64,000 nucleotides of DNA from the NCBI RefSeq assembly GCF_009914755.1, contig NC_060944.1; one strand, 5' to 3'. A program made the translations under genes and the position numbers. The notes beneath the pieces were generated by a model, which made no database searches, was not told where the DNA came from, and saw only the letters and a program-made list of their open reading frames with translations. This DNA comes from the human T2T-CHM13v2.0 reference genome, Homo sapiens. Positions 46,508-54,494 of this stretch are shown here, piece after piece (within the stretch, counting starts at the first letter, position 1; each line of letters starts with the position of its first letter).

Positions 46508-46595
46508 TACATCCCGCTGCGGGCCTGGCTCTACCGGGATGGCTTTGCCCGATTCTCCAACACCCGTTTCACACTGAACAGCATTGATGACCAGT
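46508..46595 (+). CDS. TTLL9: TTLL9 exon 10a, conserved (YIPLRAWLYRDGFARFSNTRFTLNSIDDQ), followed by a U12-type donor
   Basis: ccttag|TAC...CAGT|gtatcctg; contains the TTLL Y-x-x-G-x-x-RF motif; 88 nt, phase 0 to 1. Confidence 0.92.
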
Positions 46596-46683
46596 GTATC
46601 CTGGGATCCTGGCTAACCACCCCCGACACACCTACCCCTTCCCACACTCTGGCCAGTCCCAAGTGAACTCCTTTGTCCCACAG

Positions 46684-46726
46684 GTGTTTGCTGAATGCCT
46701 GCTGTGGTCTGGGCACAGGAGACAGG
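46684..46726 (+). CDS. TTLL9: TTLL9 alternative exon 10b (VFAECLLWSGHRRQ), probably L2-derived
   Basis: ctttgtcccacag|GTG...CAGG|gtatga; 43 nt, same phases (0 to 1) as 10a; this peptide is in the human reference protein as I recall it. Confidence 0.75.
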
Positions 46727-47458
46727 GTATGAGATAGGTCTGGTCCCTTCCCTCCGGGAGCTTCCAGTTTTGTGGGGGTGATTCCATGGGAGAGGCCAAC
46801 TCTGCTCAGAGCAGCTCACTGCAAGCTGCTCTGCCTGATGATAGTTTTGGTGCTATGCCTAACATTCACATTTACTTATATTCCTAGGGTCGGACAGTTT
46901 TAGCCCCTTTGGAGAACATTTGCATCCTTTTATGTGCCTCTTTCTTCAGTGCCTAGTCATTGGCTCACTCATTCATTCAAGTACAATGCTATTTTCACCC
47001 ATCCGATTGGCAGAGACCAAAAATTTGATAACACAGTGTCCTGGCGAGGCTGGGAGAATACATACGTTGCTGGCGGGATTGTAAATTGATTGGTATGACT
47101 CCTTTGAAGACAATCTAGCAAAGATCTGTTAAAAGACAAATGCACACATGCCCTGTGACCCAGCAATTCCTCTTCTGGGATTTTATCATCTTACAAGTAC
47201 ATCTGCGGTATAAGACAAGACAGGCTTCAAGGTCATTCACTGCACAGCCTTGTTTGTGAGAGAAAAAAATAGGGAACATTGAAATGAATGGCTCCTTTAT
47301 ACAGTGGAATACTATGAAGCTGTTAAAAAGGAATGGGGAAAGTGCTTTATGTACTGATATGAAACAATTTCCAAGAAATATTGTTAATTGGGAAAAAACA
47401 AAGCATGTCTAGAACAGTGTTTGAAAGTATGTTCTCGTTCATGTTAAAAATTATATCT

Positions 47459-50400: not shown

Positions 50401-53400
50401 GGTGTCACAAAGATGTAAATACTGAGTCAAGCCCATCTGGCCAGATTGCTTCCCAGAAGAGTCCTTTTATCTTTTTACCCTCACTGGGTGTGGTGGCTCA
50501 CGCCTGTAATCCTAGCACTTTGGGAGCTGAGGCGGTCAGATCACTTGAGGTCAGGAGCTTGAGACCAGCCTGACCAATATGGTGAAACCTGATCTCTACT
50601 AAAAATACAAAAATTAGCCAGGCATGGTGGCAGGCGCCTGTAATCCCAGCTACTCGGGAGGCTGAGGTAGGAGAATCACTTGAACCCGGGAGGTGGAGGT
50701 TGCAGTGAGCCAAGATTGTGCCACTGCACTCCAGCCTGAGCAACAGAGCAAGACTCTATCTTAAAAATAAATAAATAAAAATAAAATATTTTTACCCTCC
50801 TATTGACTGGTCCATTTCATCCCAACTCCCCAGTCCTGGGGACAATTGTTTTAAACAGCCATTTCTGAAACGACTGGGCATGTCTAGGTGAAGCAGATAG
50901 GGGCATTCATTATATGATTCTTGCAAATATTCTGTGAGTTTTGAAGTTTTCAAAATGAAAAGATTTTTTAAATGCAACTGACTTGATGAGGGAGCAGAAT
51001 TTTGCCTTAGAATTAGCATTTCTTCCAATTTTCATTTTCCCCCATTTGCGTGCCTTTGAAATTATATATCTTCTATTACTAGGAACTTTGAGCTTTTTCC
51101 CAGATGGGGTCCTACCAGCTTTATTTTCTCTTTTATGTCTGTCCATATCCTTTACTTAGTAAATAAACAGTCATACATTTTATTGTTAATTCATGTGGGA
51201 TTTTCATGTGACAGAAACAGACTATTGCATTTGCTACACATCTTTTCTGTGGTCACTGATTCTTTAATTTTTGCATTGACATCTGTTCATTTTTATTTTC
51301 ACATGCTTGTCCATTGGTTTACTTGTCCATTGGTTTCCTCTGTGATTTTTACCATCATTTCTAAACTAAGAAAAGTCTTTTTCTCCTAAATATTTTGCAG
51401 TGAATCAGTTCTGTTTCTCTGTGGATTTATTTTGATTGTATGTTTACTCTGCTACTTGACCATTGGTCCACTGAGACCTGGTTTTAGGTTCCTCTCTAGA
51501 GACGGGAGGCTCTGAGGTTGGCTGACCCATCTCTCACCCCTTTCTTTCAGCCTCTGCTTCTCCTCTGCTCCTAAGGAGGCCCGCTGTCTCCTCCACAGCA
51601 GGCGGGAGCAGTGTGTGAAGTGTGAAGTTCTGGGAGTCGTACTTCCTTCATCTGAAGAGAGCTATTTCCCCTCTTCAGCCAGTAACTTACTTTGCCCCAG
51701 CATCCTCTTTTCCTTTTTTTTTTTTTTTTTTTCAAGACAGAGTCTTGCTCTGTTGCCCAGGCTGGAGTGCAGTGGCACAATCACGGTTCACTACAGCCTC
51801 CATCTCCTGGGCTGAAGCGATCCTCCTACCTCAGCCTCCCTTGTAGCTGGGACCACAGGCACGCACCACCATGCCCAGCTAATTTTTAAATTTTTTATAG
51901 AGACTGGTCTCACTATGTTGCCCAGGCTGGTCTCAAACTCCTGGGCTCAAGCGATCCTCCTGCCTTGCCCTTCCAAAGTGCTGGGATTACAGCCTCGACT
52001 TCCCGGGCTCAAATGATCCTCCCACCTCAGCCCCTCAAGTAGCTGGGACTATAGATGCTCGCTTCCACGCCTGGCTAATTTTTGTATTTCGTGTACATAC
52101 AGGGTTTCACCCTGTTGCCCAGGCAGGTCTTGAACTCCTGGACTCAAGTGACCTGCCTGCCTTGACCTCCCAAAGTGCTAGGATTACAGGCGCGGCCACC
52201 ATGCCTGGCCAATACTTGCTATTATCTGTCTTTTTCATTATAGCCATCCTAGTGGATGTGCAGTGGTTTTGATTGGCATTTCCCTGATGACTAATTATAC
52301 TGAGCACCTTTTATGTGCTTGTGGCCACTTATAAATCTCTTCAAATCCTTTGCCCATTCTTAAATTGGATTAACTTTTTATTGTTGAGTTATAAGAATCC
52401 TGTATGTATTCTGGATACTAGTCCCTTATTAGATACATTATTTACAAATATTTTTTCTCATTCTGTGGGTTTTCTTTCACTTTTTGATAATTTCCGTTGA
52501 AGCACAGAAGTTTTTAATTCTGATAAAGTTGAATTTATCTACTTTTTCTTTTGCCATCTGTGCTTTTGGTGTCATATCTAAGAAGATCTGCCTACTCAAG
52601 GTCACAGTGACTTATTCCTCTATTTTTCTCTATGAATTTCATAGTTTTGCCTCTTATATTTAGGTCTGTGGTCCATTCAAAATTAATTTTTGGGCTGGGT
52701 GCAGTGGCTTATGCCTGTAATCCCAGCACTTTGGCAGGCCAAGGCAGGTGGATTGCTTGAGGTCAGAAGTTTGAGACCAGCCTGGGCAACATGTTGAAAC
52801 CCTGTCTCTGCAAAAAATAAATTTGGGCCAGGCATGGTGGCTTATGCCTGTAATCCCAGTACTTTGGGAGGCTGAGGCAGGTGGATCGCCTGAGGTCAGG
52901 AGTTCCAGACCAGCCTGGCCAACATGGTGAGACCCTGTTTCTACTAAAAATACAAAAACTAGCCGGGCATGATGGTGCTTGCCTGTAGTCCCACCTACTT
53001 GGGAGGCTTAGGCAGGAGAATCGTTTGAACCCAGGAGGCGGAGGTTGCAGTGAGATGAGATGGCACCACTGCACTCCAGCCTGGGTGACAGAGCAAGACC
53101 CTGTCTCAAAAAAAAAAAAAAGGTCTAAAGAAGACGTCTAGGAAAAAGATGCTAAAGAGTAAAGAGGATACCTTTTCCAGAGAGGCTGAAACCACCCTAC
53201 TCTGTTCAATACACCACAGACTGGCAGAACCATACATTTAGGGGAATTAGACTTGGAGTCAGAGACCTAGAACCTCTACCTCCCCATCTGAGAAATGCCC
53301 CAAGTAAGTCCTGGAGAAAGTCAGGTCTTATGGTCATTTCATGAGGTTTGGTACTGGGTGTGGTGGCTCACACCTGTGATCCCAGCACTCTGGAGGCCGA

Positions 53401-53650
53401 GGCGGGTGGATTACTTGAGGTCAGGAGTTTGAGATTGGCCTGGCCAACATGGTGAAACCCCATCTCTACTAAAAATACAAAAATCAGCTGGCTTGGTGGT
53501 GGGCACCTGTAATCCCCGCTACTTAGGAGGCTGAGGGAAGAGAATCGCTTGAGCTCGGGAGGCGGAGGTTGCAGTGAGCTAAGATTGCGCCACTGCACTC
53601 CAGTCTGGGCAAAAGACTACGTCTCAAAACAAACAAACAAACAAATACAA
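47459..53650. mobile_element. Alus inside the U12 intron: 47459-47763 (+), 47837-48140 (+), 49530-49830 (-), 50484-50785 (+), 51707-52210 (-), 52692-53121 (+), 53354-53650 (+)
   Basis: Alu consensus matches. Confidence 0.88.
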
Positions 53651-54435
53651 CAAGGTTTGGGGAAGCCATCCTGCTTAGTTGTGGGGTGAAGATGTTGAGG
53701 AAGGAGTATTCTGAATGGTGGTCACTTAACTTCTCTGAGCCTCCATGGTCTCATCTGTGAGATGGGAATAATTTGGGGAACAAATGAGATAATGTGTGTA
53801 AACATGCTCTGTGAGCTGCAAAGTGCTGCTGATGTCACTGGTGGTGACGATGGTGATGGTACTGAGAGGCCAAATCTCAGGGCTGGGCCTTCCAAGGCCA
53901 CCCTGACCCTATCCCAGTGCTGGATCCCTTTGCCAATATTCCTACAAAGTGGCCGCCCAGCCTGGACCCCTCTAATGACAGACAGCCTACTGTGTCCTGA
54001 GATGGTTGTTCTGTATTTGGTTCCTTTACTTGTTAGAACCACTCCTCTTGAATTAAAAAAAAAAAATCATAATATACCACAAAGGTTAAAAGAAAAGAAA
54101 AGAAAAACCGTAGTATAATAGCTATGCCAGGCACTGGAAGAGGCACAGTATTTAACCTTTTGAAAAATCCTGTGAGGTCAATATACTGCTATGTACCCCC
54201 ATTAAAAGGTGGGGAAATAGGCCCAGGGAAGTGAAATGGCTTTTCAGGAGCCCACAGCCAGGAAAGATGCAGGCAGGATTTGAATCCAGGCCCATCTGAC
54301 TCCAAAGCTCACACACACGACCGTGGAGCTATTTCGTAGCCTTCCCCATCAATTCTCAGTTCAGTCCTGGGGACTTCGTGGGGCAGAGCTCACCCTTTTT
54401 GTTCACGCTGACCCTTGACCACCACCCTCTCCCAG

Positions 54436-54494
54436 ATGTTCACCTCACCAACGTGGCTGTGCAAAAAACATCTCCCGACTACCACCCAAAGAAG
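54436..54494 (+). CDS. TTLL9: TTLL9 exon 11 (VHLTNVAVQKTSPDYHPKK)
   Basis: ctcccag|AT...AAG|gtgagg; HLTN motif; 59 nt. Confidence 0.95.

What the first reader, a model, noticed from the sequence alone, without database searches (positions are those of the whole stretch)
46508..54494. Minor-versus-major spliceosome switch: conserved exon 10a (U12 donor) and mutually exclusive exon 10b (U2 donor) in the TTL catalytic core
Seen: exon 10a ends in GTATCCTG, and the next acceptor has CCTTGAC 17 nt from the AG, the U12 signature. Only 88 nt downstream lies a second exon (46684-46726) with the same phases, a U2 acceptor and a U2 donor (G|gtatga). The exon 11 acceptor also carries a U2-type branch (CTGAC, 54408-54412), so it could serve both spliceosomes. 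The 88-nt spacer would be a hybrid U12-donor/U2-acceptor intron; including both exons shifts the frame, and retaining the spacer reaches TGA near 46664. Established: hybrid introns enforce mutual exclusivity in the JNK/MAPK8-10 genes, and the Y-x-x-G-x-x-RF...HLTN segment is conserved across TTLL glutamylases. Inference: minor-spliceosome activity sets the ratio of an intact enzyme (436 aa) to an in-frame, NMD-escaping but probably inactive form (421 aa). The human reference protein, as I recall it, uses 10b.
Basis: partly seen in the sequence, partly recalled or inferred. Interest (0 to 1): 0.85.

Follow-up and report, generated by a model that had tools for sequence, protein, structure and literature searches.

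The report
Known U12/U2 twintron in TTLL9
Human TTLL9 chooses between a conserved exon removed by the rare minor spliceosome and a short substitute exon removed by the common one; this arrangement was already published, and the substitute form, which is the reference protein, lacks a residue essential for catalysis in related enzymes.

Summary
Exon 10a (46508-46595) is followed by GTATCCTG. The exon 11 acceptor (54436) is preceded by CCTTGAC, whose branch A has 17 intron bases after it. Exon 10b (46684-46726) has ordinary U2-type sites and lies 88 nt downstream in the same phase.

- Including both exons, neither exon, or the spacer gives a premature stop in each case.
- Of 10 RefSeq TTLL9 transcripts, 7 use 10a, 2 use 10b, 1 uses neither and 0 use both.

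The arrangement is already in print. Janice et al. 2013 (PMC3564746, Table 1) list TTLL9 among 18 human U12/U2 "twintrons".

The JNK analogy is only partial. Exon 10b has a U2 donor and is not a duplicate of 10a. Closer matches are TMEM87A/B (cryptic exon inside a minor intron) and CENATAC (shared 3' splice site).

What I add:
- Exon 10a alone passes the Pfam TTL cut-off.
- It carries the Arg that aligns with TTLL6 R241, an invariant residue whose mutation abolishes activity.
- The 10b form, RefSeq Select (439 aa), therefore probably lacks activity.

Control of the isoform ratio by minor-spliceosome activity was not tested here.

The parts
45644..45684 (+). Exon 9 with U2-type donor (GTGAGT at 45685). 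It is the common upstream exon for both choices. It encodes the DLR motif, whose Arg falls at TTLL6 position 219 by ungapped extrapolation.
   Evidence: extrapolated from the alignment; for R219.
46508..46595 (+). Exon 10a: 88 nt, phase 0, 29 codons plus 1 base. Its acceptor has a strong pyrimidine tract (92% Y in 25 nt). It encodes a core segment of the TTL domain.
   Evidence: On its own it hits Pfam PF03133 at 20.7 bits (cut-off 20.1), profile positions 130-157 of 292. All 5 PDB matches at E<=10 are TTLL enzymes.
46550..46552 (+). CGA codon for the Arg in the GFARF motif of exon 10a. It aligns with residue 241 of TTLL6.
   Evidence: chain 8t42_N, 229-253. In one search, R241 is called invariant, contacts the transferred gamma-phosphate and the donor glutamate, and its mutation reduces activity to background. 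The TTL equivalent is R222.
46596..46603 (+). U12-type 5' splice site, GTATCCTG.
   Evidence: It is the only one of 16 donors with RTATCCT and has the lowest U2-consensus match, 3 of 9.
46596..46683 (+). 88-nt spacer: a would-be hybrid intron with a U12 donor and a U2 acceptor. In-frame TGA at 46664-46666 if retained. TCCTT followed by TGTC at 46669-46677 resembles a U12 branch box but has no branch adenosine.
   Evidence: None of the 10 RefSeq transcripts joins 10a to 10b.
46684..46726 (+). Exon 10b: 43 nt, phase 0, 14 codons plus 1 base. Weaker acceptor (68% Y). U2-type donor GTATGA at 46727. No similarity to 10a.
   Evidence: DNA: 1874 of 2000 shuffles reach the observed score. Protein: 2000 of 2000. 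It does not lie in a masked repeat of 100 bases or more.
54408..54412 (+). CTGAC, a candidate U2-type branch site for the 10b-to-11 and 9-to-11 introns.
   Evidence: Its function is inferred.
54413..54419 (+). CCTTGAC, a U12-type branch box. The A at 54418 has 17 intron bases after it.
   Evidence: The published optimum spacing is 11-13 nt, so this spacing is longer than optimal.
54434..54494 (+). Shared acceptor AG (54434-54435) and exon 11 (54436-54494), which encodes the HLTN motif. This acceptor serves the donors of 10a, 10b and exon 9.

Best explanation
The intron 46596-54435 is a GT-AG U12-type (minor-spliceosome) intron of TTLL9. A U2-type intron (46727-54435) is nested in it and ends at the same acceptor. 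A small exon, 10b, sits 88 nt inside the minor intron.

There are two productive routes:
- Exon 9 > 10a > 11. The last step is made by the minor spliceosome.
- Exon 9 > 10b > 11. All steps are made by the major spliceosome, and 10a is skipped.

The two exons exclude each other for two reasons:
- The spacer pairs a U12 donor with a U2 acceptor, which neither spliceosome can use. This is inferred from the JNK2 precedent.
- Double inclusion, double skipping or spacer retention each gives a premature stop. This is shown.

At exon 11 the U12 branch box lies between the U2 branch candidate and the AG. U12 snRNP and the U2 machinery would therefore compete for the same 30 nt (inferred).

The 10a route yields an intact TTL ATP-grasp core. 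The 10b route replaces 29 conserved residues with 14 unrelated ones. The lost residues include the Arg equivalent to TTLL6 R241 / TTL R222. That form is in frame and should escape NMD, but it is very probably inactive as a glutamylase (inferred).

The U12 route is ancestral and the U2 route derived, according to the published analysis.
For: - Splice signals and coordinates.
- Frames and stops.
- Transcript usage: 7 of 10 RefSeq transcripts use 10a, 2 use 10b, 1 uses neither, 0 use both. The 46595>54436 junction therefore exists in curated cDNA-based models.
- TTLL9 is listed in Table 1 of Janice et al. 2013 as one of 18 human U12/U2 twintrons (U12 variant 347 aa, U2 variant 439 aa). The paper states that the ancestral intron was U12-type in all 18.
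- Exon 10a alone passes the Pfam TTL cut-off. It aligns with TTLL6 and Xenopus TTLL3 structures and with the intronless human TTLL2.
- TTLL6 R241 is invariant and its mutation reduces activity to background.
- Hybrid-intron logic in JNK2.
- Cryptic exon inside a minor intron, mutually exclusive with the upstream exon, in Tmem87b.
- A 3' splice site shared by the two spliceosomes in CENATAC and MAPK12.
Against: - The branch A has 17 bases after it, beyond the 11-13 nt optimum.
- The base 5' of the box (54412, read) is C, where the consensus as I recall it has T. No call tested this.
- The acceptor keeps a pyrimidine-rich tract (76% Y), which is unlike a textbook U12 3' end.
- No RNA-seq, lariat or knock-down data could be consulted, so minor-spliceosome dependence and any regulation of the ratio are unproven here.
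- RefSeq Select uses 10b. Every full-length 10a transcript is filed as non-coding. Curators therefore did not treat the 10a form as the main human product.
- I obtained no TTLL9 orthologue, so conservation of 10a within TTLL9 and the age of 10b rest on the paper's statement. The supporting tables are in supplements I could not see.
- Loss of activity of the 10b form is inferred from TTLL6 and TTL mutants, not measured.
Confidence: 0.78

Rival explanations
1. The architecture is as described, but 10b is a by-product: a recent, unregulated exonisation of intron sequence used when the slow minor intron is not recognised. Its place as the reference isoform would then be an accident of which cDNA was cloned first. 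The ratio would reflect fixed cis-element strengths, not minor-spliceosome activity.
For: - 10b shows no similarity to 10a or to any TTL segment, so it is not a duplicated exon.
- Its acceptor is weaker than that of 10a (68% against 92% Y) and its donor matches 5 of 9 consensus positions.
- Cryptic exons and cryptic sites inside minor introns are common and mostly predicted to truncate proteins.
- RefSeq models are heterogeneous: 8 of 10 are non-coding.
Against: - 10b keeps the frame exactly (43 against 88 nt, both 1 mod 3), so the product escapes NMD.
- Janice et al. describe the 18 twintrons as conserved in vertebrates, though the per-gene table is in a supplement I could not see.
- RefSeq Select rests on this form.
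Confidence: 0.3
2. The 10b protein is functional. It could be a non-catalytic or dominant-negative TTLL9 that still binds its partners or microtubules and tunes axonemal polyglutamylation. Alternatively it could be an enzyme that tolerates the replacement.
For: - It is in frame, escapes NMD, and keeps all other TTL-domain exons.
- A precedent exists: the U2-type variant of the NCBP2 twintron loses most of its RRM yet has independent roles.
Against: - No data on the protein.
- The lost segment covers Pfam TTL positions 130-157 and the R241 equivalent. Retained catalysis is therefore unlikely, and folding of the central domain may suffer.
Confidence: 0.12
3. The 10a-to-11 intron is an ordinary U2-type intron with an odd donor, and the U12-like motifs are coincidence.
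For: - It has GT-AG termini.
- The acceptor has a pyrimidine tract and a CTGAC upstream.
- The branch spacing of 17 is outside the U12 optimum.
Against: - The donor matches only 3 of 9 U2-consensus positions, the worst of 16, yet matches RTATCCT exactly.
- I estimate the joint placement of both motifs at about 1 in 100,000 by chance.
- It has been published as U12-type.
Confidence: 0.03

Closest known systems
TTLL9 twintron as listed by Janice, Jakalski and Makalowski 2013 (Biol Direct 8:4, PMC3564746)
   Same: [quoted passage not shown] The U2 variant is 439 aa, equal to the RefSeq Select 10b form.
   Different: - The paper gives only a table row: no coordinates, no exon 10a/10b description, no mutual-exclusion logic.
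- Its U12 variant is 347 aa, a shorter model. RefSeq's only coding 10a model is 341 aa.
- It says most twintron isoforms, apart from HNRPLL and NCBP2, show no change in conserved motifs. Here the U2 variant loses a core TTL segment.
JNK genes (MAPK8/9/10), exons 6a/6b with a U12-U2 hybrid intron (Chang et al. 2007, PMC1874599)
   Same: The spacer between the two alternative exons has a U12 5' splice site and a U2 3' splice site. It is predicted to be unspliceable, which drives mutually exclusive choice.
   Different: - In JNK both alternative exons are followed by U12-type 5' splice sites, so both isoforms need the minor spliceosome. Here 10b has a U2 donor, so the choice is between spliceosomes.
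- The authors suggest that the JNK exons arose by exon duplication. 10a and 10b differ in length and are unrelated.
TMEM87A/B exons 11/11a (Olthof et al. 2019, PMC6717393)
   Same: A U2-type acceptor and a small exon sit inside a minor intron. That exon is used only when the upstream exon bearing the U12 donor is skipped, and no reads join the two exons.
   Different: - Exons 11 and 11a are both 72 bp. Here the exons are 88 and 43 nt, and the substitute removes a catalytic segment.
- I did not see which donor type follows exon 11a.
CENATAC (CCDC84) intron 5 and MAPK12: a 3' splice site shared by both spliceosomes (reviewed in PMC8329584)
   Same: One acceptor serves both a U12-type and a U2-type 5' splice site.
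   Different: - In CENATAC the competing donors belong to one exon, and the minor route gives the PTC form.
- Here the donors belong to two different exons, and the minor route gives the intact form.
NCBP2 twintron
   Same: The major-spliceosome route yields an in-frame protein lacking much of the core domain.
   Different: - In NCBP2 the U2 intron is external to the U12 intron. Here it is internal.
- The NCBP2 short form has been studied experimentally. The TTLL9 10b form has not, as far as my searches show.

Membership tests
U12-type (minor) intron, GT-AG subtype | 5' splice site RTATCCT(T) directly at the exon end. The consensus is as I recall it; the review's logo figure is not held. | tested here: met
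   GTATCCTG at 46596-46603. Position +8 is G rather than T.
U12-type (minor) intron, GT-AG subtype | Branch box TCCTTRAC close to the 3' end. | tested here: met
   CCTTGAC at 54413-54419. It is the only acceptor region of the 26 introns with CCTTRAC in the last 40 nt. The preceding base is C, not T.
U12-type (minor) intron, GT-AG subtype | Short distance from branch site to 3' splice site (optimum 11-13 nt, PMC3584512). | tested here: inconclusive
   17 bases follow the branch A. This is longer than the optimum quoted. I did not see a published upper limit.
U12-type (minor) intron, GT-AG subtype | No distinct polypyrimidine tract. | tested here: not met
   76% pyrimidines in the last 25 nt before the AG. 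This fits an acceptor that also serves U2-type donors.
U12-type (minor) intron, GT-AG subtype | Removal depends on U11/U12/U4atac/U6atac. | not testable with these tools
   No RNA data were available. Published classification only.
Spliceosomal twintron (definition of Janice et al. 2013) | [quoted passage not shown] | tested here: met
   Introns 46596-54435 and 46727-54435 are both in RefSeq transcripts. TTLL9 is in the paper's Table 1.
JNK-type mutually exclusive exons | The spacer between the alternative exons has a U12 5' splice site and a U2 3' splice site. | tested here: met
   46596-46683. 0 of 10 transcripts splice it.
JNK-type mutually exclusive exons | Both alternative exons are followed by U12-type 5' splice sites. 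| tested here: not met
   The 10b donor is GTATGA with no RTATCC. JNK is described.
JNK-type mutually exclusive exons | The alternative exons are homologous duplicates. | tested here: not met
   There is no similarity above shuffles in DNA or protein, and the lengths are 88 and 43 nt.
TTL / TTLL ATP-grasp catalytic core (for the exon 10a peptide) | Match to Pfam PF03133 and presence of the invariant Arg (TTLL6 R241 / TTL R222). | tested here: met
   20.7 bits against a cut-off of 20.1, profile positions 130-157. Arg aligned to position 241 of 8t42_N. Role of R241. The 14-residue 10b peptide is too short for the scan, and I saw no likeness by eye or by alignment with 10a.

The most novel reading that the evidence does not exclude
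The protein taken as the human reference for TTLL9 (439 aa, exon 10b) would be a catalytically dead splice form, made whenever the major spliceosome outcompetes the minor one at a shared acceptor. The 10a/10b ratio would act as a physiological dial on axonemal tubulin polyglutamylation in sperm and motile cilia. Minor-spliceosome defects or tissue differences would then lower TTLL9 activity without lowering TTLL9 mRNA. The dead form might also act as a competitor for partners.
Probability: 0.15. Interest if true: 0.6.

Novelty: already known. Interest (0 to 1): 0.3.

Why it matters
As a splicing phenomenon it adds nothing new in kind. TTLL9 has been on the published twintron list since 2013, and the mechanism classes have been described: hybrid spacer, exon inside a minor intron, shared acceptor.

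The practical point is annotation. The RefSeq Select protein lacks a core TTL segment with an Arg that is essential in TTLL6 and TTL. The only coding RefSeq model with exon 10a lacks three other TTL-domain exons. No RefSeq protein therefore represents an intact human TTLL9.

- Variants in exon 10a or in its U12 signals would be read as intronic against the Select transcript.
- Expression constructs built from the reference protein may be inactive.

If the ratio does respond to minor-spliceosome activity, TTLL9 would link that machinery to ciliary and flagellar tubulin glutamylation.

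Tried and rejected
- **Exon duplication origin of 10b, as proposed for JNK.** Rejected: there is no DNA or protein similarity above shuffles. 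The 60-nt-flank comparison in the same call scored 64 against a shuffle mean of 16, but that is an artefact. The two flanked stretches overlap on the genome, so I discard it.
- **Repeat origin of 10b.** It does not lie in any masked repeat of 100 bases or more. Shorter or older repeats were not tested.
- **TTLL9 orthologues, to test conservation of 10a and the age of 10b.** Exon-sized queries cannot reach full-length proteins. I therefore aligned the single-exon human TTLL2 ORF with ten TTLL9 exon peptides as separate rows and searched with that profile. All 120 listed hits of 344 were TTLL2, and no TTLL9 was obtained. I did not repeat it. Clustering at 90% identity would probably also hide 10a/10b isoform pairs.
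- **Exon 9 peptide against the PDB, to confirm the R219 register.** 0 hits. The register rests on ungapped extrapolation.
- **A shared intron position in human paralogues.**
  - Of the six paralogues looked at (TTLL3, 4, 6, 7, 8, 13), none has an intron at the same base and phase, and none of their inferred donors is U12-like; TTLL4 has a U12-like motif 18 nt inside its intron (see Noticed in passing).
  - TTLL3 and TTLL8: phase 2, 7 nt before the His codon of the HL(C/T)N motif.
  - TTLL6, 7 and 13: phase 0, 15 nt before it.
  - TTLL4: further upstream.
  - TTLL9: phase 1, 5 nt before it.
  - I inferred these exon ends by eye, because no annotation was available for those chromosomes.
- **Quantitative U12 scoring with published matrices, and a chromosome-wide background of donors.** Not possible, because bulk sequence and matrices were not available.
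- **Supplements.** Not opened, because the session states they are closed. Tables S1 and S2 of PMC3564746 (conservation and expression per twintron) and Table S7 of PMC6717393 may hold TTLL9-specific data.
- **Literature searches.**
  - TTLL9+U12: 1 paper.
  - TTLL9+minor intron: the same paper.
  - TTLL9+isoform+exon: 27 papers, 20 listed. By title and abstract start, none deals with the human isoforms except the twintron paper.

Full report
**What is in the sequence.**

The window covers most of TTLL9 on the plus strand. I read the region directly and recomputed every boundary from the RefSeq table.

- Exon 10a is 46508-46595 (88 nt). The intron after it begins GTATCCTG at 46596.
- Exon 10b is 46684-46726 (43 nt). 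It has a CAG acceptor after a moderate pyrimidine tract, and the donor GTATGA.
- The spacer between them is 88 nt.
- Exon 11 begins at 54436. Upstream lie CTGAC (54408-54412) and CCTTGAC (54413-54419). The A of the latter, at 54418, has 17 intron bases after it.
- Both alternative exons begin in phase 0 and have length 1 mod 3.

**Is it more than chance?**

Neither motif is enriched in the window. RTATCCT occurs 9 times on both strands against 12.5 expected from shuffles. CCTTRAC occurs 16 times against 20.1.

The placement is what counts.
- Of the 26 distinct RefSeq introns inside the window, one donor (46596) carries RTATCCT.
- Only the exon 11 acceptor has CCTTRAC within its last 40 nt.
- There are four plus-strand copies of the donor motif and twelve of the branch motif in 64,000 bases, against 16 donors. 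I estimate the chance that both fall in place on one intron at about 1 in 100,000.
- The 10a donor also has the poorest match to the U2 donor consensus of the 16 donors: 3 of 9 positions, against 5 to 6 for all others.

Two features are not textbook U12.
- The branch spacing of 17 exceeds the published optimum of 11-13 nt (PMC3584512: passages and section 4).
- The acceptor keeps a pyrimidine-rich tract (76% in 25 nt).

Both fit an acceptor that must also serve U2-type donors.

**Consequences for the reading frame.**

Counted from the RefSeq Select start codon:

| Exons included | Outcome |
|---|---|
| 10a only | 454 aa |
| 10b only | 439 aa |
| 10a + 10b | TGA inside 10b at 46692-46694 |
| neither | TGA at 55455-55457 |
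| spacer retained | TGA at 46664-46666 |

No RefSeq model corresponds to 421 aa.

**What the annotation shows.**

- Of 10 RefSeq TTLL9 transcripts, 7 contain 10a, 2 contain 10b, 1 contains neither and 0 contain both.
- The only coding model with 10a (NM_001367620.2, 341 aa) skips the exons at 29234-29345, 30380-30565 and 40494-40562. The exon at 30380-30565, scanned on its own, matches the TTL profile; the other two were not scanned.
- NR_160276.2 has every core exon plus 10a. It is filed as non-coding, I presume because its stop lies 114 nt before a 3'-UTR junction.
- No RefSeq protein therefore represents an intact TTL domain.

**It is already published.**

A full-text search for TTLL9 with U12, and with "minor intron", found one paper each time, and it was the same paper: Janice, Jakalski and Makalowski 2013, PMC3564746. 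I read parts 1 and 2 of 3: the main text, Table 1 and the reviewers' comments.

- Table 1 lists TTLL9 among 18 human genes with a twintron, giving a U12 variant of 347 aa and a U2 variant of 439 aa.
- The text states that in all 18 the ancestral intron was U12-type and conserved in vertebrates.
- The per-gene conservation and expression tables are supplements, which I could not see.
- The paper says that most twintron isoforms show no change in conserved motifs, apart from HNRPLL and NCBP2. For TTLL9 that does not hold, as the next section shows.

**What exon 10a encodes.**

- Its 29-residue translation on its own reaches the Pfam TTL cut-off: 20.7 bits against 20.1, E = 2.7e-4, profile positions 130-157 of 292.
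- Against all PDB sequences it finds five sequences at E<=10. All five are TTLL enzymes: four TTLL6 constructs and Xenopus TTLL3. Each E-value is weak (0.33-0.88), as expected for so short a query.
- It aligns with the intronless human TTLL2 over the same motif.
- In chain 8t42_N the match covers residues 229-253. This puts the Arg of the GFARF motif (codon 46550-46552) on position 241.
- The TTLL6 structure preprint (10.1101/2020.06.07.139295; passages) calls R241 invariant. [quoted passage not shown] - By ungapped extrapolation, R219 falls on the Arg of the DLR motif in exon 9, which both isoforms keep. I could not confirm that register, because the exon 9 peptide gave no PDB hit.
- The 14 residues of 10b show no likeness to 10a.

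The 10b protein thus lacks a residue that is indispensable in two relatives. Inactivity is my inference, not a measurement.

**Mechanism.**

Shown:
- the signals;
- the frames;
- the absence of 10a-10b joining in curated models.

Inferred:
- The spacer, with its U12 donor and U2 acceptor, cannot be removed by either spliceosome. This was predicted and studied for JNK2 (PMC1874599, passages).
- Recognition of 10a depends on U11 binding at its donor, across a strong upstream acceptor (92% pyrimidines).
- If that fails, exon 9 is joined to the weaker 10b acceptor (68% pyrimidines) or directly to exon 11.
- At exon 11 the U12 branch box sits between the U2 branch candidate and the AG, so the two machineries compete for one short stretch.

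I could not test whether the ratio follows minor-spliceosome activity.

**Comparison with known cases.**

- **JNK.** The analogy is only partial. According to the review PMC8329584 (passages and section 7, part 1 of 2), JNK has two U2-type 3' sites and two U12-type 5' sites, so both isoforms need the minor spliceosome. The exons are thought to have arisen by duplication. Here 10b has a U2 donor and is unrelated to 10a.
- **Tmem87b.** This is closer. A cryptic exon 11a inside the minor intron is used only when exon 11 is skipped, and no reads join the two (PMC6717393, passages).
- **CENATAC and MAPK12.** In these, one acceptor serves both spliceosomes.
- **NCBP2.** Its U2 route removes most of the RRM. 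This is the nearest functional parallel.

**Paralogues.**

- A Pfam scan of the whole reference found 46 exon-level TTL matches.
- I looked at six paralogues whose matches break near profile position 150-157. None has an intron at the same base and phase as TTLL9.
- All the inferred donors are U2-like: GTGAGC, GTCAGT, GTAAGT, GTAAGG, GTGAGC and GTATGT.
- In TTL, TTLL2, TTLL10 and TTLL11 the match runs through the site without a break.
- I inferred the exon ends by eye.

**Function of the gene.**

TTLL9 is described as an elongase of polyglutamate chains on axonemal tubulin in Chlamydomonas (PMC11466076, passages; PMC3873882, search-listing abstract only).

**Verdict.**

- The regulatory part is untested.
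- The JNK comparison needs the qualification given above.
- The useful residue is an annotation point: the reference human TTLL9 protein is probably not an active enzyme.

Noticed in passing
L010 (G000 chr2:219234180-219234800, TTLL4), positions about 101-126 and about 460-479: In TTLL4 the presumed U2 donor (GTATGT) is followed 18 nt downstream, in frame, by GTATCCTC. The acceptor of that roughly 375-nt intron is preceded by TCCTTAC, with its A 8 nt before the junction. This could be a U12-like alternative 5' splice site adding six residues. Exon ends were inferred by eye. A TTLL4+U12 paper search gave 3 papers, none relevant by title.
   Followed up: partly
window 150-63658 (all TTLL9 RefSeq models): No RefSeq coding model encodes an intact TTL domain. 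Select (439 aa) lacks the 10a segment. NM_001367620.2 (341 aa) has 10a but skips three upstream exons of the coding region. NR_160276.2 carries a complete 436-aa ORF with 10a but is filed as non-coding; its stop lies 114 nt before a 3'-UTR junction.
   Followed up: yes
window 46669-46677: Just upstream of the 10b acceptor, TCCTT is followed by TGTC. This is the pyrimidine core of a U12 branch box without a branch adenosine, 10 nt from the AG. It may be a decayed or never-functional site, and it would help keep the spacer unspliceable by the minor spliceosome.
   Followed up: no
L004-L013 (human TTLL3, 8, 7, 4, 13, 6): Several paralogues have a U2-type intron within 2 to 10 nt of the TTLL9 U12 intron position, just before the HL(T/C)N motif, but at a different base and phase. 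TTLL3 and TTLL8 share one position, and TTLL6, 7 and 13 share another.
   Followed up: partly
window 63364-63370: This is the second plus-strand GTATCCT of the window, 218 nt upstream of the last coding exon and not at any annotated donor. It is consistent with chance.
   Followed up: no
L003 83-1402 (+) and L001 7347-9104 (-), TTLL2 gene region on chr6: There are long ORFs of 439 aa (no Pfam match at E<=0.001) and 585 aa (not examined) inside the TTLL2 gene span. They were not pursued.
   Followed up: no
window 21898-22070: The annotated U1 snRNA pseudogene RNU1-94P lies in a TTLL9 intron. It was not examined.
   Followed up: no
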